Shown here one piece after another: positions 2,773 to 52,600 of a DNA stretch of 64,000 nt; the stretch's first letter is position 1, and the number at the start of each line of letters is the position of its first letter. The notes under the pieces are model-generated. The model did no database searches, was not told the DNA's origin, and saw only the letters and a list, made by a program, of their open reading frames with translations. This DNA is from a virus: positions 32,001-96,000 of the IMG/VR virus record IMGVR_UViG_3300025769_010106; one strand, 5' to 3'. Position numbers and translations under genes: made by a program.

Positions 2773-3636
2773 ATGAAAGTAAGATACACTGAAGCGTTTT
2801 ATTCAGTTCAAGGAGAAGGTCGCTGGACAGGTGTGCCCAGTGTTTTCCTTCGCATGTATGGTTGTAACTTTACATGTCCTAAGTTTGGCATTGCAAGAGA
2901 CAGTAACGAAACAGCAGAGCCCCATATCAATAAAATTGTAGATGAGATTGACAAATACAATAGCATTGATGAGCTACCACTTGTAACAGTTGGATGCGAT
3001 AGTTATGCAGCCTGGCATCCCGCATTTAAACGATTCCAGCATGATGTTGATATTGATCAACTAGTAGACGATCTGCTTGCACTTACACCAACAGGTTCTT
3101 GGACATTGGACAATGGACAGGATATCCATTTGGTTATTACAGGCGGTGAACCCTTGCTTGGTTGGCAACGAGCATATATACAATTATTCAAACACGAACG
3201 CATGAAGGACCTAAAGAATGTTACATTCGAAACTAATACTACACAGAATTTGTCTGACGATCTCAGATCGTACCTCACAGATAATCAACATGTACACATT
3301 ACATTCTCTTGTTCCCCTAAACTATCGGTTAGTGGACATACTTGGGTTGATGCTATCAAGCCTAATGTTGCTGTTGAGTACGCTAGTCTTCGTAACAGCC
3401 ACTTGTATCTTAAGTTCGTTGTTTGCGATGATGTTGACGTGGCAGAAGTTGATCGAGCTGTTGCAGAATATAGATCTGCAGGACTTGAAGCGCCGGTTTA
3501 CCTCATGCCAGTCGGCGGTACGACGGACAGTTACTTCAAAAATGGCCGCCAAGTCGCAGAGCTCGCCTTACAAAAAGGCTACAGATATAGTCCACGGCTC
3601 CACGTTGACATCTTTGGCAACGCCTGGGGAACCTAA
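2773..3636 (+). CDS. queE: 7-carboxy-7-deazaguanine synthase (radical SAM QueE) with an expanded cluster loop
   Basis: FYSVQGEG...VFLRMYGCNFTC...GCDS, ITGGEPL, FETN, SPK, YLMP, SPRLH; adjacent to queD. Confidence 0.88.
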   Translation: MKVRYTEAFYSVQGEGRWTGVPSVFLRMYGCNFTCPKFGIARDSNETAEPHINKIVDEIDKYNSIDELPLVTVGCDSYAAWHPAFKRFQHDVDIDQLVDDLLALTPTGSWTLDNGQDIHLVITGGEPLLGWQRAYIQLFKHERMKDLKNVTFETNTTQNLSDDLRSYLTDNQHVHITFSCSPKLSVSGHTWVDAIKPNVAVEYASLRNSHLYLKFVVCDDVDVAEVDRAVAEYRSAGLEAPVYLMPVGGTTDSYFKNGRQVAELALQKGYRYSPRLHVDIFGNAWGT

Positions 3637-11968: not shown

Positions 11969-12427
11969 TTAATTTTTTAGTGATTCAGAAATAGTTTCTA
12001 TATGCGTTTTGCAGTCTTTACTTAGTCTAAATAAGTTTTGAACATGCTGTCTTAGTTCTTTATCGTCACTTGCATCTAATCCGTTAATTAACAGGCCCAT
12101 AGAAATATCATTATATAAACTAATTACATCCTGATTTATATTGGAAATATAAGGTTGTAACGATCGCTGTAGCATAATTGAAATCTTCTCTGCTTCTAAC
12201 CAATCCTCTTTTAACATTTCTATTAAAGAGCTATCAGTGGTCATATTTTCTACACTCTCTTTAAACATATAATAAATACCTGCATAATATGCTGCTATTT
12301 TAAATGTAGCCTGGCAGGTCGTAATAGTTTTAAGGCCCTGATATAACACGTTCTTATCATTACCTTGCGCCCATACTGAAGAAGTCAAGATAATTGAAAT
12401 TAATATAGACAAAAAAGTTGATTTCAT
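11969..12427 (-). CDS. Putative exported protein
   Basis: Signal peptide MKSTFLSILISIILTSSVWA; very AT-rich; opposite strand to neighbours; TATAAATA on the minus strand at 12466-12473. Confidence 0.65.
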   Translation of the reverse strand: MKSTFLSILISIILTSSVWAQGNDKNVLYQGLKTITTCQATFKIAAYYAGIYYMFKESVENMTTDSSLIEMLKEDWLEAEKISIMLQRSLQPYISNINQDVISLYNDISMGLLINGLDASDDKELRQHVQNLFRLSKDCKTHIETISESLKN

Positions 12428-12472
12428 AATTATAAATCCATATAATAGTACTTAGTTAAAGGAGATATTTAT

Positions 12473-12805
12473 ATGTCAATCGAAGAACCAGTTGAAGAGA
12501 CCAATGAAGAAAACACTGTTCATGAAGTTAAGCCACAACAGCAGACCCTAAGCATTCAGGATCTTACGTTAATGGTTAATATTCTTGAAGTAGTGAGTAA
12601 TCGAGGTGCCATTAAAACTAATGAGATGGAATTAGTAGGTAAATTATATAATAATTTAGTACTATTCCTTAAAGAAAATGGTGTGATTGCTAATCAAACT
12701 CAGGAAGATGCAGTAGCACATGATGCTGAAAAAGTAGAAAACGAAGAAGGTGATTCAGATACTGCTGAAAAAGTAGAAAACGAAGAAGGTGATTCAGATG
12801 CTTAA
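12473..12805 (+). CDS. Acidic hypothetical protein
   Basis: AAGGAG RBS; LSIQDL...RGAIK.NE...VG.LY core; duplicated C-terminal 13-mer. Confidence 0.7.
   Translation: MSIEEPVEETNEENTVHEVKPQQQTLSIQDLTLMVNILEVVSNRGAIKTNEMELVGKLYNNLVLFLKENGVIANQTQEDAVAHDAEKVENEEGDSDTAEKVENEEGDSDA
12724..12799 (+). repeat. 39-bp-period tandem duplication (AEKVENEEGDSD x2)
   Basis: TGCTGAAAAAGTAGAAAACGAAGAAGGTGATTCAGAT at 12724 and 12763. Confidence 0.9.
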
Positions 12806-13436
12806 ACATGTAGGTAGACATGGTGAACAAAGAGTCGCTGTTGTCTTTAGAGAAGTACCCAACGAGGAACATATGTGCTTGGTAATCTATCCAGGTCAGC
12901 TACAATCAGCATATCATAACGATCTTATGAAGTGTATTGAAAGTAACGCAGGACAAACTGCAAGCAATTTAGGCGAAGCCATGCAACGTTATGTTGGTGC
13001 TGACGGCCGCAATCTACTAGTAGCCGCTCACCGCGAACGCTGGATGAAGAAGGTACGGTGTCAGGACGTTATTATGACACCAGTTCCTAATCAGCAGGGT
13101 GCACGCCTTGATGAGATCAACAAGATCATTAAGGAAGTGGAATCAGGCGCAGATGCTGCCAAGCGTATGGCAGAGATTGATGCACAGGCTGGTATGGCAG
13201 ATCCTGCAAAGACTGTAAGCGATACAGCATATGCTGCAACTGCACCTGCAGGTGTACTAACTGATTCAGATATTGCCGCAGACATGATGAAGCAGGCAGC
13301 ACAAATGGAGTCACAGATTGCAGGACTACAGGCAGAAGTTGCACGTCTTACTGAAGAAGCAACTGCACTTGATCCAAGTGTTGCTCCAGCACCTGCTCCT
13401 AAGAAGCGCGGTCGTCCTAAGAAGGCTGCTGCCTAA
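12798..13436 (+). CDS. Phage protein with a coiled coil and C-terminal AT-hook-like KKRGRPKK
   Basis: Start MLKHVG after GAAGGTGA; RGRP motif. Confidence 0.7.
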   Translation: MLKHVGRHGEQRVAVVFREVPNEEHMCLVIYPGQLQSAYHNDLMKCIESNAGQTASNLGEAMQRYVGADGRNLLVAAHRERWMKKVRCQDVIMTPVPNQQGARLDEINKIIKEVESGADAAKRMAEIDAQAGMADPAKTVSDTAYAATAPAGVLTDSDIAADMMKQAAQMESQIAGLQAEVARLTEEATALDPSVAPAPAPKKRGRPKKAAA

Positions 13437-14116
13437 TGAAGGTAAGCCTGGTTAGTTTTAGCCAAGCCAGTCCAGAGTTTTTAACTGAACACGATCTTGC
13501 TGATGCAGATGTGCAGGACCTTATTGCGTTCTGTGCTAGAGTCAGCAACCCTAGTGGACAGTTAAACATGGAGACTAGTGCAAAGCTCATTAAATATCTG
13601 ATCAAACACAAGCACTGGAGTCCCCTAGAAATGGTCAGTGCTTGTATGGAGATTGAAACTACTCGTGATATAGCAAGGCAGATCCTACGTCACAGGAGTT
13701 TCAGTTTCCAGGAGTTTAGCCAACGCTATGCTGATCCCACAAAGGATCTAGAGTTTGTTATTCGTGAAGCACGTTTGCAGGATACTACAAATCGTCAAAA
13801 CAGTATCGAGAACGATAATCAGCAGCTGGCTGTTGACTGGGAAGAGTATCAGAGAGATGTAATTGAATATGCCAATAGAGCATATCAATTTGCTATTGAA
13901 AATGGTATTGCAAAAGAACAGGCTCGTGCTGTTCTCCCGGAAGGACTGACCGTTTCTCGGTTATACATGAACGGCACACTACGTAGTTGGGTACACTATA
14001 TTGAACTACGTGGTGATAATGGTACTCAAAAGGAACACATGGAGATTGCTCATGCTTGTGCTAAGGTTATTGCAGATGTGTTCCCACTTGCAGACGAAAT
14101 GTTTGAATGGTCATAA
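13436..14116 (+). CDS. thyX: Flavin-dependent thymidylate synthase
   Basis: HWSPLE, RHRSFSFQEFSQRY signature, EQARAVLP, TQKEH. Confidence 0.95.
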   Translation: MKVSLVSFSQASPEFLTEHDLADADVQDLIAFCARVSNPSGQLNMETSAKLIKYLIKHKHWSPLEMVSACMEIETTRDIARQILRHRSFSFQEFSQRYADPTKDLEFVIREARLQDTTNRQNSIENDNQQLAVDWEEYQRDVIEYANRAYQFAIENGIAKEQARAVLPEGLTVSRLYMNGTLRSWVHYIELRGDNGTQKEHMEIAHACAKVIADVFPLADEMFEWS

Positions 14117-14376
14117 AACATAACTGGGTACCTACACATTCATACCCACAGGGTTGCGGTTACTCGAAAGTATACGAACATCAGGTTACACTAGAGTGTG
14201 ATGGCGTAAATTACCAGAGCATGCAATGGGCAGCAGAACATTGCAACCGTCGTTGGGGTTGGTACTTTACAGTGCTAACTACTAACTATGAGAAACATGC
14301 AGTTATGACATTTGAAGACCCGGAAGAAATGATGCTTTGGGTATTGCGTTGGCAAGCAGAACATAGGAGAAAATAA
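14107..14376 (+). CDS. Hypothetical small alpha/beta protein
   Basis: WAAEHC..RWGWYF...FEDPEEMMLWVLRW. Confidence 0.6.
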   Translation: MVIKHNWVPTHSYPQGCGYSKVYEHQVTLECDGVNYQSMQWAAEHCNRRWGWYFTVLTTNYEKHAVMTFEDPEEMMLWVLRWQAEHRRK

Positions 14377-14660
14377 TGGGCGGCGATAAATCATTTGCTA
14401 ATATTGAAAAGATATTAACCAAGTATGAAAATGAAACTAACAGGTTGGAATTGGTTATTCATGCTGCTCAACTTGCAAGATCCAAAAAGATTTCAGGACG
14501 AGCTGCATTAAATGTTTTAGAAACAGAAACTATTAATTTAAAAGATTTAGACGAGCAACTGATGGATAAACTACAGAAACAAATCCAGAAAGACAATAAA
14601 GAAAAAGAAAGCAAAAAGGTAGATTCAGATGATCCACCTACACAACCTAAACAGACTTAA
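14376..14660 (+). CDS. RNA polymerase omega subunit (RpoZ)-like protein
   Basis: NRLELVIHAAQLAR and AALNVLETETINLKDLDEQLMDKLQK resemble the omega NRF(D/E)LVL.AA.RAR and (V/I)ALREI...L..LQK blocks; AGGAG RBS. Confidence 0.6.
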   Translation: MGGDKSFANIEKILTKYENETNRLELVIHAAQLARSKKISGRAALNVLETETINLKDLDEQLMDKLQKQIQKDNKEKESKKVDSDDPPTQPKQT

Positions 14661-15621
14661 TAAAGAATTAAATACTGCTTTAATAAAAGCTAACGACCTG
14701 GTTCTAAAATCAGGTCGTGTCATGATGGGTGAATATACACTGGAGTTTGAAAGCAGAATAGCAAAAGTATCTGGAGCAAACTACGCATGTGTAGTAGGAA
14801 GTGGAAGCGACGCTCTGTTGTATGCGTTAGTATCTAGTAACACTACAGGACTTGTTGGCATGCCTGCTCAAACTTTTATTGCTACTAAAAATTCTATTTT
14901 AAGAGCTGGATGCATACCTTATTTGGTAGATGTAAAGAATAATGCTCTATTAAATTGGGATTTAATTCCAAACAGTGTTGATTGTGCTGTATGGGTTGGG
15001 TTATTTGGTAACTCTGAACCTCTACCTGATAACTTATTTGTAATAGAAGATGGAGCTCAACATTTTGGAGCAAGGCTTCAATCCAATATTGCAACATATA
15101 GTTTTGATCCTACAAAAAGTCTACCTAACTTTGGCAATGGCGGTGCAGTTGTTAGCAACGACAAACGTGTTATAGACAATGTAAAACTTTTACGCAGACA
15201 TCAAATAGTAAATGGACACACGGGCGGCAACAGCATAATGAGTGAACGTGAGTGTGCTGAAATGTGTGTTAAGTTAGATTACTTTCCTCTTTGGCAAGAG
15301 CGTAGACAGGAGATTGCTAGAGATTATTACACACATTTAGGACATCTTGTAAATTGTGTCACTCAACTAGATGGACAGATAAGCAAGTTTATTATTGAAA
15401 CAACTATGCGGGCTGACCTACAAAAATACCTATCTCACAAACATATAGAGACCAAACGTGCCTATGAACATCCAATATACGAATTTGACCAGGCATCCAA
15501 AAACTGTAAAAGATTTCTACAATTACCCTGTGATCCTTATATGACTGATGAAGAACTGTTAGCTGTTATAATGGCTGTCAAAGAATTCTTTGAGGAAAGC
15601 CCACTCGAAAGTTTGCTGTAG
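14629..15621 (+). CDS. DegT/DnrJ/EryC1/StrS PLP sugar aminotransferase
   Basis: GSGSDAL, TFIAT, IEDGAQ, YSFDPTK(PLP Lys)SL..GNGGA, LQLP. Confidence 0.9.
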   Translation: MIHLHNLNRLNKELNTALIKANDLVLKSGRVMMGEYTLEFESRIAKVSGANYACVVGSGSDALLYALVSSNTTGLVGMPAQTFIATKNSILRAGCIPYLVDVKNNALLNWDLIPNSVDCAVWVGLFGNSEPLPDNLFVIEDGAQHFGARLQSNIATYSFDPTKSLPNFGNGGAVVSNDKRVIDNVKLLRRHQIVNGHTGGNSIMSERECAEMCVKLDYFPLWQERRQEIARDYYTHLGHLVNCVTQLDGQISKFIIETTMRADLQKYLSHKHIETKRAYEHPIYEFDQASKNCKRFLQLPCDPYMTDEELLAVIMAVKEFFEESPLESLL

Positions 15622-19794: not shown

Positions 19795-20088
19795 TTAAAA
19801 TATACCTATCATTAGTTTAGTATCTTCCGGTATAAGATCAGGTCCCCACTGTGGTTCCCATACAAGTTCACGTTCTACTTCTGTCACACCGTCAACATTT
19901 TTGCAGGCTTGGTATATGTCTTCGCATATTTGATCGGCAAATGGACACATAAAACTTGTTAAGCTATGCTTTACATGAACTTTAGTTTTTTCTATTTCTA
20001 TACTATATATCAAACCCAAATCGTAAACATTAACGCTTATCTCTGGATCATAGACAAGACGTAGTGCTTCTATTATCTTATCTTTCAT
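19795..20088 (-). CDS. SufT/DUF59 Fe-S cluster assembly protein
   Basis: VYDPEI..VYDLGLIY...TSFMCP...WEPQW. Confidence 0.9.
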   Translation of the reverse strand: MKDKIIEALRLVYDPEISVNVYDLGLIYSIEIEKTKVHVKHSLTSFMCPFADQICEDIYQACKNVDGVTEVERELVWEPQWGPDLIPEDTKLMIGIF

Positions 20089-21566
20089 GAGCAGACCTTC
20101 ACACCATACTGCTTTTCAAAACGATCTGCGTCAGCACGATCATTTACCATGGGCTCGCCACGGATGTTTAGGCTAGTGTTTAATAGCATTGGGCAGTCTG
20201 TCATTACATACCACTTTTCAAGTAGGTCCCTTGCGCCAGTACGATCATCCTTGCCTACTGTTTGTACACGACTGGTGTTGTCATAATGTACTATTGCAGG
20301 GAATAGATCTGGACGCTTACATTTATAGGTAAACTGCATATAGGGACTCGTATCCAGTCTGGGCATATCAAAATAATCGTGTGCATGCTCCTCTAATATC
20401 ATAGGAGCAAAAGGTCTGAACTTTTGTCTGCGTTTGATCTCGTTAACACGGTCTTTTATATCATCGCCGCGTGGGTCAGCAAGTAGACTGCGATTGCCCA
20501 GAGCACGTGGGCCAAACTCTGCACGACCACTTGCAACTCCTACAATACCTTCACGCTGTAGTTCGCCAATAATTTCTTCACTGGGATATTCACCGGGAAT
20601 GTTTGTTCCCAGATATGGCCCTTGCCAGTTTAAACGTTTGCCATATGCAAGAGCAGCAGCACCTAAACTACTACCACAGTCGCCAGGGTTTGGCATAACC
20701 CATAGTCTATTCCAGATATCACGAATCGCACTATTTGCAACACAGTTAAGAGCAACACCCCCCATGAACACGCAATCATCAATATCAGTATTTGTAATAC
20801 TTAATTGATGCATTGCCGTTCTGAGCATGCCTTCAGTGATCATTTGTGCAGCTCTGGCTATTTCTTCGATTGTATATTCACTGGCGAAACTGTCTTCTAC
20901 ACCAACGTGAAAATTTCGTTTAAAAATCTGTTTATGTTCATTATCTAAACTACCAGTAACAACCTCGCGATATGCATTTGGAGATCCATACGCTGCCATA
21001 CCCATGAGAATATATTCTTCTTCCATGGGTTTTAAACCACAACGCTTGGTCATTGCGCTGTAAAACAATCCTAAACTATGAGGGTAGCGACGTGTATAAA
21101 TCCTTTTATATTGTGCCCGACCTTGGTCATCGTATTCAGCACGATATGTTGACCAACAGTCCCATTCACCAATAGCATCTATTACTACCACAACAGCACG
21201 ATCAAAGGGTGATGTTTGAAACCCTGCCGCAGCATGACTTAAATGATGTCCTGAGTATTTGTCTACTTTAAGTCCGTATGGTTTTAATTGTTTAGTAGGA
21301 CTAGGGTCACCAAACACTTTACGCCACTCACCACTATATAGTTGACGTGTTTTTTTCAGCCATGGACGTTCATACCAAGCAACTAAATCAGGCGTACCAT
21401 AACCGAGTGCCTCAGCCATAATGCCTTCATTTAGTGTAGCATCATTTTTAACTTTACTATAGCGTTCGCTGTGACCTGCAAAAAGTATATTGCCTCTACT
21501 GTCCACGACACTGACACCAGCATCATGAAAGCCTGCACTCACGCCCATGTATGTTTTAAGTTTCAT
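20085..21566 (-). CDS. NodU/CmcH/TobZ-family O-carbamoyltransferase
   Basis: FHDAG, HSERYS, HHLSHAA, DAIGE, MGMAAYG, GGVALNC, EFGPRALGNRS, RPFAP, RVQTV, LNTSLN. Confidence 0.95.
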   Translation of the reverse strand: MKLKTYMGVSAGFHDAGVSVVDSRGNILFAGHSERYSKVKNDATLNEGIMAEALGYGTPDLVAWYERPWLKKTRQLYSGEWRKVFGDPSPTKQLKPYGLKVDKYSGHHLSHAAAGFQTSPFDRAVVVVIDAIGEWDCWSTYRAEYDDQGRAQYKRIYTRRYPHSLGLFYSAMTKRCGLKPMEEEYILMGMAAYGSPNAYREVVTGSLDNEHKQIFKRNFHVGVEDSFASEYTIEEIARAAQMITEGMLRTAMHQLSITNTDIDDCVFMGGVALNCVANSAIRDIWNRLWVMPNPGDCGSSLGAAALAYGKRLNWQGPYLGTNIPGEYPSEEIIGELQREGIVGVASGRAEFGPRALGNRSLLADPRGDDIKDRVNEIKRRQKFRPFAPMILEEHAHDYFDMPRLDTSPYMQFTYKCKRPDLFPAIVHYDNTSRVQTVGKDDRTGARDLLEKWYVMTDCPMLLNTSLNIRGEPMVNDRADADRFEKQYGVKVCS

Positions 21567-40604: not shown

Positions 40605-43600
40605 TTATTCTCTGATTTCAACATAATCTTCTTCAACATAATCAGCAGCAACATATCGAGGACTATCTAGTTCACGTAAATAATTACCAACTGTAGCTTC
40701 TTTATCCTTAAGGAAGTTTGCGTTAATTGTAGAAGAGGATTGCAAACCTAAACCATTTGCTGCTGTTGTAGATCCTTGAGTATACCAAACTTTAGTATGG
40801 GTACTAGTGTCTGGTAATTCCTGTGCAAGACTACCATCAATTACAGGAGTCATCTTTCTGTGAATTGGGAAAAATGAAGTTCCACTAGTTCCTCGTCTAA
40901 AATTCGTTATATAATTGTCTTCATAACTTATTTCCCAATAAGTGACTCGTTCTGCACCTATATATACAACGCCAGGTTGTTTGTCATTTACCCTTGCCAA
41001 TGGCAACTTAGTTGCATCTTGTACATATATTTTAGTATCAGTTGGTAACAGATCCTTAGCAAGCTCTGTCCTGAAGTCCTTCGCAAGTCTTCTATATTCC
41101 CATTCACCTAACATATTATTCAAAATTCTGAAACCAACTGTTGGTTGAATAACATTTTCACTAAAGCTAGTAATTACTATTATACTATTAGATGTTACAC
41201 TCTGCCCAGATAGACTTACTTTATTATTACCAACAATTGTGTATTCACCAGCATGCAGTTTGACGCCATTGAGTGTTACCCACAGGTAGTTAGTGTTAGT
41301 AATATTCCTATCCATAGTGTATTCAAAAGTGCTTAGTCCAGATATAGCTGTTCCATCAAATCCCGAACTATCAAATATTACATCATCAAATCCTACTTCT
41401 GAACTAACAATTTCACTTCCTAGTCCTTCAAATACCTTGGTTTGAATTCTTAAAGGATTATGATTAGCAAAACTAGTAACATATAACTTATCCCCGTTAC
41501 TAAATGAAACAGTGTCATCCAAAGTGATTATATTACCATCAATTTGATAATCACCAGTTCGGACACTTACAATAACTGTATCTCCAGTACTGGGCGGATT
41601 GAAAAACTCAATAGTTCTAACACTGCTGCCATCTGATGGATTGACAAAATAGTCTATATTTGGTGTTTTATTGGTAACAGGATTAAGAGTGCTTCTATCG
41701 TCAGGACTTATAACAGTTACTCTAATATCACCATCTGCAAGTGTTGGCAATTCTCCCGCTGTAGTAGGTATACTATAAACTAAAGTACTACCATCAGCAA
41801 CATAATGTTTTGCATTACTTGGACGTAATCTTAAATTACCAAGTTCTACTACTACATTACCCTCAAATGGCTGAGTGTATTGTATTGTTTTTTCTAGATC
41901 ATATGTTTTTGTTCCGGATACCAATGTAATTTCCTGAGTATAAACCTCAGTCCATGCCTGTCTGCTTTCATCCTGATCATACATAAAGACATGTATATGA
42001 TCACTATTAGCAGGTACATCAGTAAACTGTAAAAGAACTTTGTTATCACTGTCATTAACAGTGTAATCAATACCCTTAACTAATCTTATACCATTTTTAA
42101 GTACAAGTTGTTGATCAGCATTGGCAATTGGTATACCGGAAACAAATCCTGCTGTGCTTCCGTCACCAATAAATGTCTCCTCGTGAGACATTTTTTCACC
42201 TGTAACACCAAATCCATAAATGTAAACTGCACTACCAGCAGCTGGAGTATTTTCTAGTGTTACTGTTCTATCAAAATAATCAAGGGTAAGATTGCGTTGT
42301 GGTGTAGCACCTACCCAAACTCTAATAAAATCCACATCTTCTTTTGCTTGACTGCTGGCAAAACTAAATGTTTTTGTTGATCCATCAGCAGAATAAACTT
42401 TACTAATAACCTCAAAGCTGCTGCCGTCATACTCGAAGTCATTACTAGGATCAGTATAAACTTCCATGTCAAGGGTATCAAAAATAATTCCTGGTATAAC
42501 CTCTTCTGGAGCATGACTATTATAGACATCAACAAACTTGCCACCGTCAATGTTTATATCTTCTGGGCGAGTTCCCAGAGCTAAATCCGCAAAGGTTCCT
42601 CTTATTATAGTATCTAATGAGCTTGTCCCACTTAAAACTGCAAGTCCGTCAGTATCAATGTCAAAATCATCATAGCCTATAGTATCAAAATTACCCTGAT
42701 CAAACCCAGGCTCTAAATCAAACCCAGCACCAGTTACTCTATTTCCAGTATAATCAGTACCTAGCTGTAGAAGATTAAGATCGTCACCTAGCATACCAGA
42801 TGTTGGTGCATAATAAGCTGCTATCCTGTCCGCATTAGAGGCTAATAACTCATCGCTGTATACTTCAAGTACTGTCGTTCCATTGGAAATTTCAGTACTA
42901 AATGTTGACCCGCTAGTAAATCCACCAGTAACAATACACTTATAAACTTCCTGCTCACCGCTAGTATTATTTTTATATGAGATAATATCTTCATAAGCAT
43001 ATGTTGTATTGGCAGTCCAGTCTTTTACTATAGAACTATAGGTAATTCTATCAAACTTAATGGTGACATCAAACTCTCTTGATGTTATATTTTCCATGCG
43101 TGGGGCTATAATACAACCCGTTCCTGCACCAGTAATAGTGATGGTTGGAGTTCTAGTATACCCACTACCGTTTTCTAGTAGGATAACTTCAATAATTTTA
43201 TCTGAATTTGTTCTTGCTCTCGCAGTTGCAGTAACACCGCCTGGAAGATCAGGTGCACTGATAGTTATAGAAGGATCAATAATATATCCAGTGCCCTGAT
43301 TAAGAATTACTAAACTACTAACTCTAAGACTATAATTGTCATTCCAAGGTTTATTAAGTCCTTGTTTTTGAAGTATCTCATCTCCGGAGTAATCGCCACT
43401 TGGTTTTCTAAAATATTGAAGCTTCTCATCATAAAAAGCATGAACATCAAAGTCTGTTATGTCACCACCAAAGGTATCTGTTCCATTGAATTTTGTAATA
43501 TATTCGCGAATCTTTGTCTTATAAGGTTTAACTTCGTTAATATATGATTCAATAAACTGACTATTATCGCTTTTATATGTAGGATACTGATTTAGATTTC

Positions 43601-46600
43601 TTAATTTATGGATAACTTTTAAGAAGCTAGTTTTGAAAATCCAATCTGTTATACCAGTGTCTTCACTGAGTACATATTCAATTAATCTAAAAAATAACTT
43701 GTTCAAATGTATACTTAGATCATCAACAAATATTTCATCCTTTATTGCTGTAAGAATACTTCTTATCTCAGTAAAAGGAACATTATCATAATACTTAAAG
43801 TCAAATATATCATCGTCAAACCCAACATTCCTTGTAAAATCTGAGGTCGAGAATGTATACAAACTACTGTTTAATTCTACTGTTCCGTTTTCAATAATAA
43901 CTTCTTTCCAGGTATTAGATCTTGTATATTCAAAGAAGCTAAAGTTTCCGTCGTCATTAGTTAAAACTTTTGCTGTCTGACCCACACTAGCATCCAAAGT
44001 AAGAAGTTCAGGTTCATTTTTCACTTGATAATGAGGAATTGTAGTTTGGTTATATCCTTCAGCATACCATGTTTTATATGACCAATATCCACTTGTAGTA
44101 AAAGACTGCACCTTAGTAAGGAACCAGGTCTTGTCTGCCTTTAAGGTGTAAATTGTCCAATTATTATCTAATGATTCATCTTTATCTACAAGAACGTTAT
44201 ATCCAGTAGACAGAGTGTTTACGTTTAAATAATCTCTTTCATCAATATTGTTGACCTTTTTATCCCATTCACCACTTTGTGAAGTAGGCTGGAGTTGACT
44301 TGAGAACAGACCAGTAAGTGGTGATTGTCTAACTATTGGTATCGTTTTAAAGACATCGTTACAATAATCAACAGCTATTTTAATAGCCATTCTCCTATTC
44401 TTTAGTAGTGTTTGTCTTGGTCTTATGAATATACCATACCTGTTAAACTCATTTAATGTAGGATCTGGAATAATGTTTCCTGTCGCGTCTGTTCCAGCCA
44501 TACTGTCTACTAGCTTATTCCAAATTTTAGATGGAATTTTTTGTGCACTATCTCCCTCAGAAACAATATCAAATTCACTGTGAAGAATTCCTTCATTGGG
44601 AACAACATCATAGTTAATACTCAATACAGTATTGTCGCCACTAATATTTTCTTTTACATTTGTAAGAGAAAGTGCGCTCTGAGATAAGAAACTAACAAAC
44701 TTAATTCCTTGACCTTTAGGGTCTGCAATAAGGTTAGCAACTGATTGTATACTAATGTTCCTAAAATCTGCTTCTGGAACACTGAGTTTTCCTTTTACCC
44801 AGAAATAATATTTTGTTGTTGTACTATTAGTAGCCGTGTTATATTGTTGAGTTGAGCTATAATAGGTGTCATCTTCATGTTTTGGTGTTCCTTCATATCC
44901 CGCTGCAATATATTCACTGGGCAACACATCACTTTCTACCCATTCATATACGTCAATTGAGCTGCCAGGAAAGAATTGCCCCCAATGATTTGCCCTGTAA
45001 TCTATATCGCCTTGTTCATATTCTATAATTGAACAGGTTTGCAGATCCCACCAAACTTTGCCAATATACTCATTATCCCATGAACGCCCACTACTGTTGT
45101 CAGGACTTGTGGTATAGGCTGCTGGATCATATGGTGTCATATAGTTAATTTCAGCTTCAGCTTGTCCTACAAGTTTACCCTTATAAGGATCAATATAGTC
45201 AAGGAAATTTGTAACTATATCATTACTACGATCGTAAAGTATTGTACGATTTATTAGACCTATATCAACTTTCTCAACTTCATTTCTATAAAGCTGCCAG
45301 CCTTTCTTACGCAATGGATTAACAAATTCATAAACTGTGCCACTATTAACTGCTGAAGTATCATCTAATCTTGATCCAACAAAAAGTTTAGAATCCATAT
45401 ATGCTACACTGTAACCAAATTGATCCAAATAACTTATGTCGTCACTTTGAAGTTGCTGTATAAACCCATATTTGAAAGGATTAGTAATACTCGCAGTACC
45501 AGAGGGTAGTAGTTGTTCAAATGTATAAACTGCTCCACTCTGTGTCTTTCTATCAATAAACGTTGTACTGTCTGAATCAAAGGTTGTCAAGTATTTGCCG
45601 TAATTAACGCTAGTGGTGTCATTGTCTAAATCAAATCTTGTACGTGATAGCGTACTTGCTACATCACTAGTAATAACTAATTCTTGCAGACTTAAATAAC
45701 CATTATTTTCAAACTTGTTAAAGGCGATTGCGGTACCAAAGTTTTCATTTTCAAATCCGGCTGGATGATTGATTTTCTGCACTAGCCTAAATGGTGTTAT
45801 TTTACTTGTCTTAAAACTAGACCCAACGCCTGGTCTAATTCTCATTAACCTATTAGTTGTATTATTCGCACTGCTTATGTAAGCATTACTGCCTACAAGA
45901 GATGTACTTATATTAACAATATTAGCATTAGCAATATCAGAAACCAATTTAGCTTGATCATTACTTGTAGATGACATTGTAACTTTAAAGTCATCTACAT
46001 AAATTGTGTCCCCGCTGGTTACAGAAAATCCTGACTCTGTTGTTATGTTACCAAACTTCATTCCAGAATCAGCAAATAGGAATACACTTCCTGTGTTAGG
46101 ATTAAGTTCATCTTCTCCAGGTGCGCCTATAGCTATAATAGATCCATAAGCATCTATTGCCACACTTCTTCCAAAATTTTCACTGTCTGATGGCGCCTGA
46201 TCTGTTAAATTTTGATCTATCTTTTGTACTTCTTTGTATGTGCCTGTAAATATTCTTACCGTACTACCAGCGGTTGGTGTATATCTAAATGTAATGGTGT
46301 TGCTTGAAACACTATAATAGTTTATACTACTTCCATCACCATCATCAGGGTCTGTTATTGAGGTAAGTGTTTGTAAAACTCCGTCAACTTCTACATAAAA
46401 CTTACCTGGAAGATTGGTTTCTGTAGTGAACGATTTAGTAGTACCATTACAACTAAATGCTTCTACTGTCATATTAAAAACATACGCTTCACCTGCGTCT
46501 TGATATACCGTACTTGCAGAGTTTGCAACTTCTGCATAAGGGGCGCCAACAACAAGTGTTCTACCACTGTTGTCAATATCAATTGATTCTCCGAACCTAT

Positions 46601-49600
46601 CTCCACTCATAGAATCACTACCAGTAATAGTTTCTATTAATTGATAATGAGTCTCCTGTCTAACAACAACTTTTAGACCGTTTGCTGGAATTGATGTAAA
46701 AGTAATATTATTACCGCTAAGTGTGTAATCTAAGTAGGGGAAATAAGTTTTACCCAAGGTGTCTTGTAAATATATACTGTTAACACTTAAAGGCGTAAAG
46801 TTTAATGTAAATGTGGCAGTAATCCCATCACCACTAATATTATCTATACTATTCTTATTTGTAGCAATATCATTTAAAGCATATACATACACTGTATTTG
46901 TACCAGGGGCACTAACAAACATATAACGATCATCTTTTGAAATTTTAATCTGTGTACCAAATTGTGCGCCTGAGGCTATACCATTAATTGATATTGCTTG
47001 CGTTTGAATATAAGATCCGGCTCCCTGATTTTTGAAAACAGTTACATAACCCTTTGAACTATTACTAGAAGGAGCACCAACAGCACCGTATGATCCACCT
47101 AACCCTAAACCGGTACCAAAATCATCTACAAGTCCGCTCTTATCACTTAGTGTGATAATTCCAGTTTCAATGAAAGAATTACTTTCATCAATAGCAAAAA
47201 ATGTCGCAGAACCTGTTCCGTCATTGGGGGCGCCACTAGCAGCGGTTATACCTTGATTGCCTATAGCAATACTGTGGCCTAGATAAGCATTTCCTATCTT
47301 GCTATTAAGGGTTTTAAATGTTTGCTTGGCCCAGGGTTCATCTTTCTTATACACTGCCCATTTACTATTCGAATCATCATCAATCCAAACAAGCTCATTT
47401 TTATTCCATCCAAAAGCTGGTGTGCTGGAAGTTATATCTGATAGGCTTGAAAATCTTGATCTTGTTAATTTAAACACAGGATCTCTTAGTTGCTGACGCT
47501 CTATTTCTATATCGGATTTAACAACAAAGCTATTTGGTGATGGTATACTGTCTATTTGATAAAAGCCTGAATATACATCTGTTGTTTTAATTAATACTTG
47601 TTGACTTAGTTTAAAGCCGTGATTTCCACTTGTTTTAAACGTAATAAATCCGTTAGTACTTGATACAGCACTAGTAATTTCAACAGTTGTTTCTGAAACT
47701 CTGTATACAGTCCAATCAGGAGAAACATTTTCATCTCCAGGACTTCTAGCTATCCAGATCTTTTTGCCTCTGCCTATCTTGTTGATTGATTGATTTAAAT
47801 TTTTTAAATCTGTTGATGCCCACACTGTAAAGTCAATATCATCTAGTCTAGGATATCCAGCAGAAGTTAAATCACTATTTGGTGTATATGCAGACCGTAC
47901 ATTTAAAAACTTATTAGAATATTCGTTAGGAACAGTAAGTAAATCTTTTTTCAATAATGAAATATAGTCTTGATTAGTTTTCTGTGTGCTATCAGCTAAT
48001 AGTTCAATAATGACTGGGTTATTCTCTTTCTTAGATTCTTTAACAATGAAAGATATAACCTGGTTACTGTCTATGCTTCCAAATTCACCAACTCTAAATC
48101 CCCATTCTTCATAGAAATTTATTTCCTGATCAACGTTAGTTAGATTAGCTTTAACTAATTTGTTTATACTTTCCTGAGTACCCTTAGTTTTTAATAAACC
48201 TTGATAAAACTTTACTTGGCTTACATCGTCCAAGCCTAGATTTTCTAAATATCCTCTGCTCCTAAAACCAATTAAACCTTTAGCTGCTTTTGAAGTTCCA
48301 ACCTCTAAATTCACCTTGTTAACATCAAAGAATTCGTTAAAACTCTCAGCCTTAGTAGCAATATTAGGAAGTAGACCATTGGTCATGTACTCATTAACTA
48401 CCCAATCGTTATAGTCAAAGACTGTCTTTCCGCCATGATTAACTTTTGCTGCATATACCTTGTCTCGGAAACTTACATAGTCACCTTTTTTATAGTCTTT
48501 ATTTTGCTGCCATATTTCAAATTTATTGTCGTTAAAAATATAACCGGGTGCATGTAATGTACCATTCCATTGGCCAGCCTTGAATCCTACTAGTTTTACT
48601 CTATCCTGTCTATTTCCTAGCTCAGGTTGATATACTATGTCATTAAAAATAGTTTTGTTATCAAGAACAACATAATGTTCATATTGAATAGGACTTACAT
48701 TTGCACTATACAACACATTTTGATCTGTATTTACAGTGATAGTAGTTTGATTATCTATTCGTGATACATTATAGTTTGATTTACGTATGGATGCACTATT
48801 CTGATCCTTTAAAGTATTTGATTTAGAAAAGTCATCAGTCGTTGTAAATGGTCTTTCGATCTCCAAATAATCATAGGCAGGACTAATTGCTAATACACTA
48901 CCAATAGGCCAATTTTGATCTGTCCAAAACAGGAATTCCCTTGCCCCAAGAATAAAATCTTGCGGTTCGCCTTTTTCTGTTACACTCTCAAATTTCATAC
49001 CTTTGGCATTTAAATACCTTTGATAAGCATTTAAGAAATCAGCAACCTGTCCCTTGGATTTGAGTACTGTCCCGTAGGGAACATCTGCGTAAGCATCCAT
49101 AAAATTCTTAAAAATTTTAATTGATTGATTACCAACAGTTACAGTTGTTGTATCAGTTCCACGTACACTTGGCACTATTCTAAAAAACGGATTTTCTATA
49201 TCGTAACCTGTTATCTTATATCCACTATGTACAATCGAAATTTTTACGCCGGAGTAAATTACTCTTTCTAATGGATTAGATTTATGCATTATAAGGTTAT
49301 AGTTTTCGTCTGGCAAAAATATTGTTTTGTTACTGCTCGATGGCGTAGCCTGCTCGGATATAATTTTTAGATACTTTTTATCACTAAATCCTGATAGTTG
49401 ATACATTAGATTTAGTGTTAAGTTTCTAATTCTAGTTTGAGTATCAGCAATAGACAAACCACGATTTACTATGTAGTTGTAGATAAATTGGTTATATCCC
49501 TCTACTCGATTTACTTCAGTAGTATTTTCTTTTGCAACACCGTGTATATAGAAATCACCTAACTTTGGTCTATAGCTTTTGTCTGTTTTTATTATCTGAG

Positions 49601-52600
49601 AATACTCTGTCTGTTTGCTATAAAGTCCAGTATCAAACATCAAACTTAGATATTTTGCTGGCTTTTTGATAGCACTAATTATTTGTATTGCAAATGGCCA
49701 TTCACTTGACCTTCTCCAAGCAGTCTCCTGAGGACTATAATCACCAAAACGCCATGCATCATCGCTATTCGCAGAAGTTACATCCTTGATTAAGAATTCG
49801 GTGGGAGAGCGTAAACGACCTTGATCATCGACTGGAATATAATCTAATAATTCAGGCTTTTTATAATTGTTATTAACAGTATAGGTATCAGTAACTGCGC
49901 TAGAATATACTTTTCCGTCTCTAATGTCTTCCCATAAAATATTATTACCGCGAGTATATGGTGCAACACCGTACCTATCGTCCCACCAACTTGGTTTTTG
50001 ACTATGCCCTAACATTTCCCATGGAGTTAAATGTGGAGTATCAGTATCATAAAACCATTTGTATATTCCTCTCCAGAAACCCGGAACTCTACGACCTTCT
50101 AATTTGGTTGTACCATTAGTGTGATTCCATGAAAATTGATTAGTCTCATTCCATGTAGTATTTTCAACTGTATCAACTCTATTTTTGATAGCCCATTTAC
50201 CATACAAACTTCTTATTATTGAAAGTTCGCGACTTAGTGATACAGAGCTGTTGGGTCTCCAATAACCTGAAAGCACTGAGTCAAAATCAAATAAATCATT
50301 TCTAAACTGTGTCTTAATATTGTTATAAACACGCTTTTCAAATTCAAGTATAACGTCGTCTCTTATGTCTCCATAAGTTGCCCAAATACTTCCATCATGT
50401 CCTTGTAATACTTCTTTTGGCACACTGTAGGTATTATCAATATATTTACGAGGTGTATACTTTTTCCACAATCCTAATTTAGTAGGAGTTGGAGGCACGA
50501 AACTTCCATCTGTATTAGTGTATTCTCTAATTTCAAATTTATCATTAAGAAAAGTGACAAAACTATCATTTAAAATAAACGCGGCATTAATAGTATCAAA
50601 GGTATAGTCTACACCTTCGAGCAGTTGTGTTTTAACATTATTTCTTATATGATAGATAATTACTGCTCTTTGACTTATGCTAGTTAAGTCAAATTGACTA
50701 CCGAATTCATATACTCTTTCTTTGATATCTTCAACTGTTAAATTAACAGTAGAAAAAGTATTGCCCCAAGGTACCATATCAGAATAATAGAAGGGGAAAG
50801 ATACTGTTTTGTTATTGACCATAAACAAGAGAATATCATCAACACATTTCGTTATATTTCTATAGTCAAGATCTAACTTATCTATATTCTCTATAAACCT
50901 ATTCTTGAATCTAGTATATTCCTCCATACTATAAATTAGACTATCAATTATATTAGCTTCATCGCTAGTAATGAGATATTGTCCTAATATAGCACCAGCA
51001 CTGTGCTGTAAAATTTTTCCAGGATATACTCTGTAATTTAAATCTCTTATATTATTTGATCCTAAACTACTACCCTCAAATTCTTTAATGTTGTTGGTTA
51101 TTATAATTAAATGATTGCGAATTTGACCTAGTGATAGATTTTCAAAATCATCATTGTTAGCATTATTTTCTATATTTTTTGGTATCTCGAAGTACCCATT
51201 TTCAATTATTGTATCTGAAAATACACGTAATGTTACAACATCATTTTTAGTTAACGACTTTTTGAACACAACATAGTATTTCTCATTCTGATTTAAAATA
51301 CTGTATTGATTGTTTGATATAAAGTTACTGTTAACAAAAACCTGTAGGCTGCTTGTTACAGTGTCTTTAGGTTTCGCTCCAATTTCAAAGGTATAAAGTT
51401 CAGAGGCAACAGTATATGTTACTATTTGAAACTGCTTGCTATCTTCTAGTACCTGTGTCCAACCATTCAATAGACTTCTTTTATTTGTCTTTTTGTCTAT
51501 GTAATGAACGTGGCCACTTCTTACAATAACTTTGGTTAACCCTGTATTTTTTACATATGTAAATGTATCTTTTATATAATTGTTCTCAAAAACAATGTCA
51601 CCAATGTTTTCAAAATTATTATAGGTTAAACCAAATTCTAAAACCTGATCAGTTGCTGCATTACTGTTTCGTTTGTAGCTAAAAAGTTTACAACCAGAAA
51701 AAGTTGAGCTTGGATAGACACTGGTATCTCCAAAACTTTTATGATTGCCGTCAAATACATCAAACAATGGTTCTTGATTAATCTTGGTTTTCTGTTGTGC
51801 TCTGAGCCACGTGCTGTTCTTATAATAAAAAACTACGCCTTGATTTTTAGCACCAAGTATACTTGTTACATTACTGTCATTAGGCACAGTGCCTATTTGA
51901 ACAAGGTTTATAATTTTTCTTGTATTAGCATTAGCATCTTCGTCAATAAAATCTACTCTAAAAATCTTGTTCTTTAAATCTGGATCAGCCGTGAATATAA
52001 CTGTCATCTGAGGCAATAGATCTATACTGTCACTAAAGTAACCGGTCTGACCATTTACATTTGACAGAGCATCTGTTTCAGTAACATCAACTACAGATAC
52101 AGGATCAATACTATAAACGCCATAGTTAAAGAGGGACAAGTTTGGAGTGAATTCAATAATTGGCCGTTTAGCTCTTGCAGTATCATCCACAGCAGGCGTA
52201 AACTTATTATATTTGGCGGTTGCTTCAATAACCTGTCTATGAAACCATCTATTTCCTCTTGCCCAAGCATTGTTATCAACACAACTCCTGTTGGCAACTA
52301 TATAGTCTTGCAATACTGGACTGTTTGAACTACCATCATAGTTTGTTGAATCAAAGACTACACTATCATAAGGTTCTTCCAGGGTTTCTGTAAAAGGCTC
52401 TGGTGTAGTTAAACTTTTTGCTAGAGTCAAAGTAATTGAAGACCCAACTCCTTCAACATAATAAGTTTTGTTTTGATAACTGGTTGGTGTAACGGTTGTG
52501 TCAAACTCTATTTTAAGGCCATTAGTAAAAATGACACCATTGGGACTTGTATAATTTTCTTTTCCTAGAACATCATTAACGACGTCAATAATAGAACTTT

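What the first reader, a model, noticed from the sequence alone, without database searches (positions are those of the whole stretch)
14376..14660. Phage-encoded RNA polymerase omega mimic lacking the MAR motif
Seen: IEKIL...NRLELVIHAAQLAR-SKKISG-RAALNVLETETINLKDLDEQLMDKLQKQIQKD. Known: proteobacterial omega reads MARVT...NRF(D/E)LVL.AA.RARQ...DK..V.ALREI. As I recall, alphaproteobacterial omegas continue ET....L...LI.SLQK, and the N-terminal MAR residues contribute to ppGpp site 1. The phage protein keeps both helical blocks but lacks MAR and the loop between them. Inference: it could displace host omega, blunting stringent control or retuning RNAP for phage promoters. It also hints at an alphaproteobacterial host.
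Basis: partly seen in the sequence, partly recalled or inferred. Interest (0 to 1): 0.75.

Follow-up and report, generated by a model that had tools for sequence, protein, structure and literature searches.

The report
Trimmed phage copy of RNA polymerase omega
An uncultured marine giant phage carries a real but heavily trimmed copy of omega, the smallest subunit of bacterial RNA polymerase; it lacks the end that helps bind the starvation signal ppGpp, so the phage may fit its own part into the host's transcription enzyme, though no binding has been shown.

Summary
Window 14376-14660 (+) is an intact 94-aa ORF with a good ribosome-binding site. An in-frame stop lies three codons upstream, so no MAR start can be hidden.

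Curated models miss it: Pfam PF01192, NCBIfam and PHROGs all give no hit. Homology to omega (RpoZ) is nevertheless well supported:
- Omega chains are 16 of 17 weak PDB sequence hits.
- A profile of the five-member phage family against 28 alphaproteobacterial omegas gives hhalign probability 96.8%, P 3e-10, against a best score of 18.5 in 100 column shuffles.
- MAFFT aligns the two families end to end.

Differences from host omega: the N-terminus is rebuilt (Ala2-Arg3 become S-F, with four extra residues), 12 residues are missing from the helix 2-helix 3 loop, and 3 residues are inserted. The alphaproteobacteria-specific helix ending L..LQK is kept.

A diverged relative keeps the gene in the same eight-gene neighbourhood. 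The phage is a Rak2/Atu_ph07-like jumbo myovirus, and no beta or beta-prime gene was found in the 108 kb held.

This scan has already flagged phage omegas on other DNA (at least 77 genomes). I found no paper describing one.

The parts
14376..14660 (+). 94-aa omega-like ORF (end includes the stop codon)
   Evidence: ORF list. Homology to RpoZ.
14365..14369 (+). Shine-Dalgarno AGGAG, 6 nt before the ATG. An in-frame TAG at 14364-14366 fixes the N-terminus.
   Evidence: Read from the sequence.
14376..14402 (+). Rebuilt N-terminus (residues 1-9, MGGDKSFAN). S6-F7 stand where host omegas have Ala2-Arg3, preceded by four extra residues.
   Evidence: MAFFT alignment A3. The structural alignment puts model residue 7 on chain residue 3 of Caulobacter omega.
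14403..14423 (+). Helix 1 (residues 10-16, IEKILTK), followed by a 3-residue insertion before the NR motif
   Evidence: AF2 model with alignment A3. Alignment A3.
14442..14486 (+). Helix 2 (residues 23-37, RLELVIHAAQLARSK), equivalent to the omega motif NRFxLVxxAxxRAR. The 12-residue deletion relative to host omegas falls just after R35 (about nt 14480/14481).
14496..14525 (+). Helix 3 (residues 41-50, GRAALNVLET), equivalent to the omega ALREI helix. The Arg of ALREI is Asn46 here.
14538..14621 (+). Helix 4 (residues 55-82), holding the alphaproteobacteria-type L..L...LQK segment. L66 and Q67 are invariant in the phage family. An acidic/polar tail follows.
12473..15621 (+). Run of overlapping + strand genes containing the omega-like gene: acidic 110-aa protein, 215-aa PHROG 15894 protein, ThyX, 89-aa unknown, omega-like, DegT-type aminotransferase
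   Evidence: The same order is found in metagenome contig L141.
12418..12446 (+). Sigma-70-like promoter match (TTGATT-17-TATAAT) in the divergent gap ahead of the run. This is a consensus match only.
   Evidence: The number of such sites in the region equals the shuffled expectation, so this is weak.

Best explanation
The ORF encodes a diverged, streamlined homolog of the bacterial RNA polymerase omega subunit (RpoZ), of alphaproteobacterial ancestry, kept under selection by a small group of marine Rak2/Atu_ph07-like jumbo myoviruses. This much is shown. It keeps omega's helices 1-3 and the alphaproteobacteria-specific fourth helix. It has lost 12 residues of the loop between helices 2 and 3. 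Its N-terminus is rebuilt, so that the Ala2-Arg3 of the MAR motif are replaced (Arg3 becomes F, I or Y in all five members). The rest is inferred. Made during infection, probably early, the protein docks on host beta-prime at the omega site, either on newly assembled or omega-free enzyme or by exchange with host omega. In E. coli, omega residues 2-5 form part of ppGpp site 1. An RNA polymerase carrying the phage omega would therefore have an altered or absent site 1, and a different surface for regulators that dock on omega. That would uncouple phage transcription from the host's starvation signalling. My odds: homology about 0.93, binding at the omega site about 0.6, loss of the ppGpp site 1 response about 0.3.
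For: Homology:
- phmmer against the PDB puts omega chains at 16 of 17 hits, E 0.15, collinear (query 18-79 on omega 10-74).
- An HMM of 28 alphaproteobacterial omegas scores all five phage proteins, with single-comparison E from 1.1e-8 to 1e-4.
- The reverse HMM of the phage family scores alphaproteobacterial omegas down to E 1.2e-9, and its 12 best hits are all alphaproteobacterial.
- hhalign gives probability 96.8%, P 3.1e-10 over 56 columns with one 12-residue gap. Shuffles reach at most 18.5 against 59.3.
- MAFFT aligns both families end to end.

Selection and phage origin:
- Five intact members share 38-48% identity, and the invariant residues sit at omega signature positions (R23, E25, L26, A30, A31, R35, L45, L66, Q67).
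- The gene sits in the same place in an eight-gene syntenic block in L141, where ThyX is 69% identical and the omega-like gene 38%.
- The baseplate wedge protein places the phage among Rak2/K64-1/Atu_ph07-like jumbo myoviruses.
- No beta or beta-prime domain was found in the 108-kb record, while the same search was positive in 14 of 14 control genomes.

ppGpp: omega residues 2-5 coordinate the ppGpp phosphates at site 1. RNAP lacking omega but supplied with omega deleted for residues 2-5 binds ppGpp with Kd above 100 uM (PMC7676912).

Against: - No curated family model matches: Pfam PF01192 and NCBIfam TIGR00690 give no hit even at E 10. Pairwise BLASTP to E. coli omega finds nothing.
- The 12-residue deletion removes most of the conserved D-K loop, and the first Arg of RAR is Leu. 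The beta-prime interface is therefore smaller than in any host omega sampled here.
- Nothing here shows binding, exchange with resident host omega, or any ppGpp effect.
- Site 1 has the smaller effect on initiation in E. coli, and its role in the unknown host is not established.
- The host is unknown.
- Only about 31% of the phage genome is held.
Confidence: 0.6

Rival explanations
1. An omega-derived decoy or adaptor. The protein keeps the omega fold but no longer sits on beta-prime. Instead it titrates or recruits factors that normally dock on omega. One example is the GafA-type activators of alphaproteobacterial gene transfer agents. A phage protein is another possible partner.
For: The trimmed loop and the changed RAR and DK residues may weaken beta-prime binding. 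In Rhodobacter, omega is a direct docking site for the GTA activator GafA (PMC9638019). A co-conserved, translationally coupled 89-aa unknown gene lies next to the omega-like gene.
Against: The residues kept invariant are those of the buried omega helices, not a new surface. No partner has been identified.
Confidence: 0.15
2. A subunit or assembly factor of a phage-encoded multisubunit RNA polymerase whose large subunits lie in the unsequenced roughly 70% of the genome.
For: Only 31% of the genome is held. Some jumbo phages encode their own multisubunit polymerases (established knowledge).
Against: No beta or beta-prime domain is found in 108 kb. The structural genes place the phage with T4-like Rak2/Atu_ph07 relatives. 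From my own knowledge, these use host RNA polymerase, and phiKZ-type phage polymerases have no omega. The protein resembles alphaproteobacterial host omega specifically.
Confidence: 0.07
3. A captured host gene drifting without function, on its way to loss.
For: Divergence is fast: 38% identity against 69% for the neighbouring ThyX. Canonical motifs have been lost.
Against: Five intact ORFs of similar length keep the omega signature residues and the same genomic position across deep divergence. The ribosome-binding site is good and the gene is translationally coupled.
Confidence: 0.05
4. A chance resemblance of a small helical protein to omega, with no common ancestry.
Against: Profile-profile P is 3e-10 with clean shuffle and reversal controls. 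HMM significance holds in both directions. The match is collinear over four helices with a single deletion.
Confidence: 0.04

Closest known systems
Alphaproteobacterial RNA polymerase omega (RpoZ), e.g. Caulobacter crescentus omega in PDB 7YE1, 9PFQ and 9PFV
   Same: Helix 1, the NR-ELV..A...AR helix, the AL...-type helix 3 and the class-specific helix ending L..LQK, all in the same order. The model superposes at rmsd 1.7-2.2 A over 54-57 residues.
   Different: No MAR: Ala2-Arg3 become S-F, T-F, T-Y or basic residue-I. The N-terminus carries up to four extra residues (none in P0003/P0005). There is a 3-residue insertion after helix 1. The helix 2-3 loop has a 12-residue deletion that removes most of the DK segment. 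The Arg of ALREI is lost in 3 of 5 members. The gene is encoded by a phage, next to thyX and not next to gmk/spoT-type genes. It scores below the Pfam and NCBIfam thresholds.
Chlamydial omega CTL0286 (PMC9973325)
   Different: It is cellular and the only omega of its organism. Its beta-prime complex was modelled, whereas here no complex could be predicted.
Phage host-takeover proteins that bind host RNA polymerase (T4 AsiA, RpbA, Alc; T7 Gp2; Xp10 P7; P23-45 gp39)
   Same: Small phage proteins thought to retune host RNA polymerase during infection (established knowledge; P7 and gp39 appear).
   Different: Those are unrelated folds that bind sigma, the beta flap or the beta-prime jaw. None is a homolog of a core subunit, and none is known to occupy the omega site.
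Other phage-encoded omegas flagged by this scan (e.g. e1-4035820, e1-5801436, e1-5381645)
   Same: Large uncultured T4-like phages carrying an omega with a rebuilt ppGpp-facing N-terminus.
   Different: As summarised, those match PF01192/TIGR00690. This family does not, has the loop deletion, and is of alphaproteobacterial type. I did not compare the sequences directly.

Membership tests
RNA polymerase omega, curated models (Pfam PF01192 RNA_pol_Rpb6; NCBIfam TIGR00690 rpoZ) | Score above the curated cut-off of the family HMM | tested here: not met
   No hit for any of the five members, even at E 10. A six-frame PF01192 search of the whole 108-kb record found nothing, while 14 of 14 control genomes were positive.
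RNA polymerase omega (RpoZ) superfamily, homology | Significant, collinear profile-level similarity to bona fide omegas | tested here: met
   hhalign gives probability 96.8%, P 3.1e-10, with shuffles reaching at most 18.5 against 59.3. HMM E-values run from 1.1e-8 to 1e-4 in one direction and down to 1.2e-9 in the other. MAFFT aligns the families end to end.
RNA polymerase omega (RpoZ) | Helix 2 motif NRF-LV..A..RAR | tested here: inconclusive
   Partly kept. R23, E25, L26, A30, A31 and R35 are invariant. Phe is replaced by Leu or Ser, and the first Arg of RAR by Leu.
RNA polymerase omega (RpoZ) | Loop plus helix 3 motif DK..V.ALREI | tested here: not met
   The 12-residue deletion removes most of the loop. 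DK is kept in 1 of 5 members. Only L is invariant (A in 4 of 5). The Arg is kept in 2 of 5 (N, E or D in the others).
Proteobacterial omega, ppGpp site 1 type | N-terminal M-A-R-(V/I)-T that contacts ppGpp (omega residues 2-5; PMC7676912) | tested here: not met
   The aligned positions are S-F, R-I, T-F, R-I and T-Y, with extra residues in front in 3 of 5 members. An in-frame stop three codons upstream excludes a hidden MAR.
Alphaproteobacterial omega subtype | Fourth helix E.TV..D.L...L..SLQK after ALREIA | tested here: met
   Kept, with L66 and Q67 invariant. It raises the hhalign score from 29.2 (non-alpha omegas) to 59.3.
RNA polymerase omega (RpoZ) | Omega helical fold | tested here: inconclusive
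RNA polymerase omega (RpoZ) | Binds beta-prime and is part of core RNA polymerase | not testable with these tools
No experimental data exist.

The most novel reading that the evidence does not exclude
The phage swaps a core subunit of the host's RNA polymerase. Its streamlined omega takes the omega site on beta-prime, abolishes ppGpp site 1, and changes the docking surface that alphaproteobacterial regulators such as GafA use. The polymerase then keeps transcribing phage genes while the starving or alarmed host tries to shut transcription down. This would be the first virus-encoded replacement of a bacterial core RNA polymerase subunit, and a natural site-1-null omega.
Probability: 0.25. Interest if true: 0.85.

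Novelty: new variant of a known kind. Interest (0 to 1): 0.62.

Why it matters
Phages are known to retune host RNA polymerase with unrelated small binders, covalent modification or their own sigma factors. I found no paper reporting a phage carrying its own version of a core subunit. Canonical omega hits in deposited phage records look like host DNA.

An omega that lacks the ppGpp-contacting N-terminus is a ready-made natural experiment on two questions. One is what site 1 and omega do in vivo. The other is how phages cope with the stringent response in nutrient-poor oceans.

The finding is directly testable with reconstituted RNA polymerase. It also shows that curated RpoZ models miss diverged viral omegas, so the phenomenon is probably under-counted.

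Tried and rejected
Searches that found no omega match for the phage protein:
- Pfam, NCBIfam and PHROG scans of the protein and its relatives gave no omega hit.
- Pairwise BLASTP to E. coli omega gave nothing.
- tblastn and megablast against 50,697 phage records gave no match.

Searches for relatives:
- IMG/VR pattern scans with the protein and with alignment A2 found no relatives.
- The metagenome scan gave one locus, L141.
- An exhaustive HMMER search of 1.84 billion representatives found only 3 family members. A word-index search with the alignment added two.
- A three-sequence profile did not improve the PDB E-value (0.16).
- One homologous-protein run on E. coli omega returned only near-identical enterobacterial sequences and was wasted. 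Diverse omegas were obtained through the genome search instead.

Structure and tools:
- The single-sequence AF2 model (two long helices, pLDDT 72) was uninformative.

Other:
- Papers by Ross 2013, Mechold 2013 and Kurkela 2021 are not held. The role of omega Arg52 at ppGpp site 1 therefore rests on my memory only.
- The T4 late-promoter motif TATAAATA is not enriched (3 matches against 8 expected).
- The idea that the phage carries a second, canonical omega was rejected for the 108 kb held: only this one copy matches the merged profile.

Full report
**1. What is there**

Window 14376-14660 (+) is a 94-aa ORF. AGGAG lies 6 nt before the ATG, and the ATG overlaps the stop of the upstream 89-aa ORF (TAATG). 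An in-frame TAG three codons upstream fixes the N-terminus as MGGDKSF.

The window is part of a 108-kb IMG/VR virus record that CheckV rates 31% complete. Baseplate hub and wedge proteins match T4-type PHROGs. The wedge protein is closest, at 34-35% identity over 86-96% of its length, to 340-490-kb jumbo myoviruses: Agrobacterium Atu_ph07, Sinorhizobium Phosso, Klebsiella K64-1 and Yersinia fHe-Yen9-04. One homolog carries a Tara name, so the phage is marine. Window GC is 38%.

**2. Curated models do not recognise the protein**

Pfam, NCBIfam and PHROGs give no omega hit for it or for its relatives. A six-frame PF01192 search of the whole record is empty, while 14 of 14 control genomes are positive. 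BLASTP against E. coli omega finds nothing.

**3. It is nevertheless an omega homolog**

- phmmer against all PDB sequences returns 17 weak hits, of which 16 are RNA polymerase omega. E is 0.15 and the alignment is collinear, query 18-79 on omega 10-74.
- The family is tiny. An exhaustive HMMER search of 1.84 billion representatives finds 3 members, and a profile search adds two. The alignment is A2.
- I collected real omegas from 121 Pseudomonadota genomes and 28 alphaproteobacterial genomes and extracted the proteins.
- An HMM of the alphaproteobacterial omegas scores all five phage proteins at single-comparison E from 1.1e-8 to 1e-4.
- The reverse HMM scores omegas down to 1.2e-9, and its 12 best hits are all alphaproteobacterial.
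- hhalign of A2 against the alphaproteobacterial alignment gives probability 96.8%, P 3.1e-10 and score 59.3 over 56 columns with one 12-residue gap.
- Against non-alpha omegas the score is 29.2. Column-shuffled queries reach at most 18.5, and the reversed query scores 12.4.
- MAFFT, given both families with no guidance, aligns them end to end.

**4. Anatomy relative to host omega**

- *N-terminus.* Ala2-Arg3 of MAR correspond to S6-F7 here, and to R-I, T-F, R-I and T-Y in the relatives. Arg3 is therefore a hydrophobic residue in all five. Four extra residues precede the position equivalent to Ala2.
- *Helix 1* is kept (IEKI against VDKV), followed by a 3-residue insertion.
- *Helix 2* is kept as NRLELVIHAAQLAR against NRFELVLLAAQRAR.
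- *Deletion.* The 12 residues that follow RAR in host omegas (Q.S.GA.LTV.R) are missing, which takes away most of the conserved D-K loop.
- *Helix 3* is AALNVLE against VALREIA. The Arg is kept in two relatives only.
- *Helix 4.* The alphaproteobacteria-specific helix is kept (ETINLKDLDEQLMDKLQK against ETLSPDDLKEDLIHSLQK), and L66 and Q67 are invariant in the phage family. This helix accounts for the higher score against alphaproteobacterial omegas. It supports an alphaproteobacterial origin for the gene.

**5. Fold**

**6. It is a maintained phage gene**

Metagenome contig L141 carries the 79-aa relative in the same eight-gene order: secreted protein, acidic protein, PHROG 15894 protein, ThyX, small unknown, omega-like, DegT, and a GT-like gene on the other strand. 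Identities are 69% for ThyX, 57% and 51% for two other neighbours, 38% for the omega-like gene, and 35% for the small upstream ORF. The gene evolves fast but keeps omega's signature residues.

No beta or beta-prime domain is present in the 108 kb, and there is only one omega-like gene. A sigma-70-like promoter match precedes the gene run, but it is only a consensus match.

**7. Mechanism**

Shown: homology, the pattern of retained and lost elements, conservation, and the phage context.

Inferred: the protein occupies the omega site on host beta-prime. In E. coli, omega residues 2-5 coordinate the ppGpp phosphates at site 1, and RNAP with omega deleted for residues 2-5 binds ppGpp with Kd above 100 uM (PMC7676912). 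A polymerase carrying this omega should therefore lack a normal site 1. From memory only, Arg52 of ALREI also contacts ppGpp; it is Asn here.

In alphaproteobacteria, omega is also a docking site for GafA, the activator of a phage-derived gene transfer agent (PMC9638019). A changed omega could therefore also change regulator input.

None of this was tested.

**8. Rivals**

- A decoy or adaptor that no longer binds beta-prime (0.15).
- A subunit of an unseen phage polymerase (0.07).
- A decaying captured gene (0.05).
- Chance resemblance (0.04).

**9. Novelty**

My literature searches found no report of a phage-encoded omega. Canonical omega hits in deposited phage records are 100% identical to E. 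coli omega or lie on bacterial-looking records, so they are likely host DNA.

This scan has already flagged phage omegas in at least 77 other genomes. Those notes are unchecked leads, and I did not compare their sequences. This member differs from them, as summarised, by falling below the curated models, by the loop deletion and by its alphaproteobacterial type.

Verdict: a new variant of a known kind, a viral and streamlined omega. Interest is moderate to high, because the function is directly testable.

Noticed in passing
window 14107-14376 (+): An 89-aa ORF is translationally coupled (TAATG) to the omega-like gene. It has no Pfam or PHROG hit. It is kept directly upstream of the omega-like gene in L141 (35% identity) and shares a WGW[YF]F motif. 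It could be a partner of the omega-like protein.
   Followed up: partly
window 12418-12446 (+): A sigma-70-like TTGATT-17-TATAAT match lies in the 46-bp divergent gap ahead of the + strand gene run 12473-15621. If real, the omega-like gene would be transcribed by unmodified host polymerase, that is, early.
   Followed up: no
window 14629-14660 and 14617-14639: The annotated start of the DegT-type aminotransferase ORF overlaps the last 32 nt of the omega-like gene, so its true start may be a later ATG. A terminator-like hairpin is called there on the minus strand only.
   Followed up: no
phage records MG065691.1, MG065686.1, OR845831.1, OR851528.1 (hits H25-H28): Records labelled as Campylobacter, Escherichia and Salmonella phages contain a gene 100% identical to E. 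coli rpoZ. This looks like host DNA or chimeric assembly, not a phage omega.
   Followed up: no
L148 (IMGVR_UViG_3300033153_001906, 119 kb), match at 3001-3195: A large viral contig encodes an omega that keeps MARVT but has the NRF motif replaced (..VVAAGGGIFHMILIAANRAHQ..). This is a different way of altering a phage-borne omega.
   Followed up: no
window 14376-14657 (Atlas neighbours): The nearest language-model neighbours are two viral clusters of small hypothetical proteins (51 and 135 members), a Chlamydiota cluster of 77-aa proteins and a PF01192 cluster. All scores are below 0.9. The viral omega-like family may be larger than sequence searches show.
   Followed up: no
window 40605-53939 (-): A 4444-aa ORF lies between the baseplate wedge gene and fibre-like genes. 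It was not examined.
   Followed up: no
window 20085-21563 (-) and 13436-14116 (+): The phage carries a NodU/CmcH-like carbamoyltransferase (PHROG 1601) and a ThyX thymidylate synthase. The aminotransferase downstream of the omega-like gene borders a large biosynthetic-looking cluster noted by other readers.
   Followed up: no
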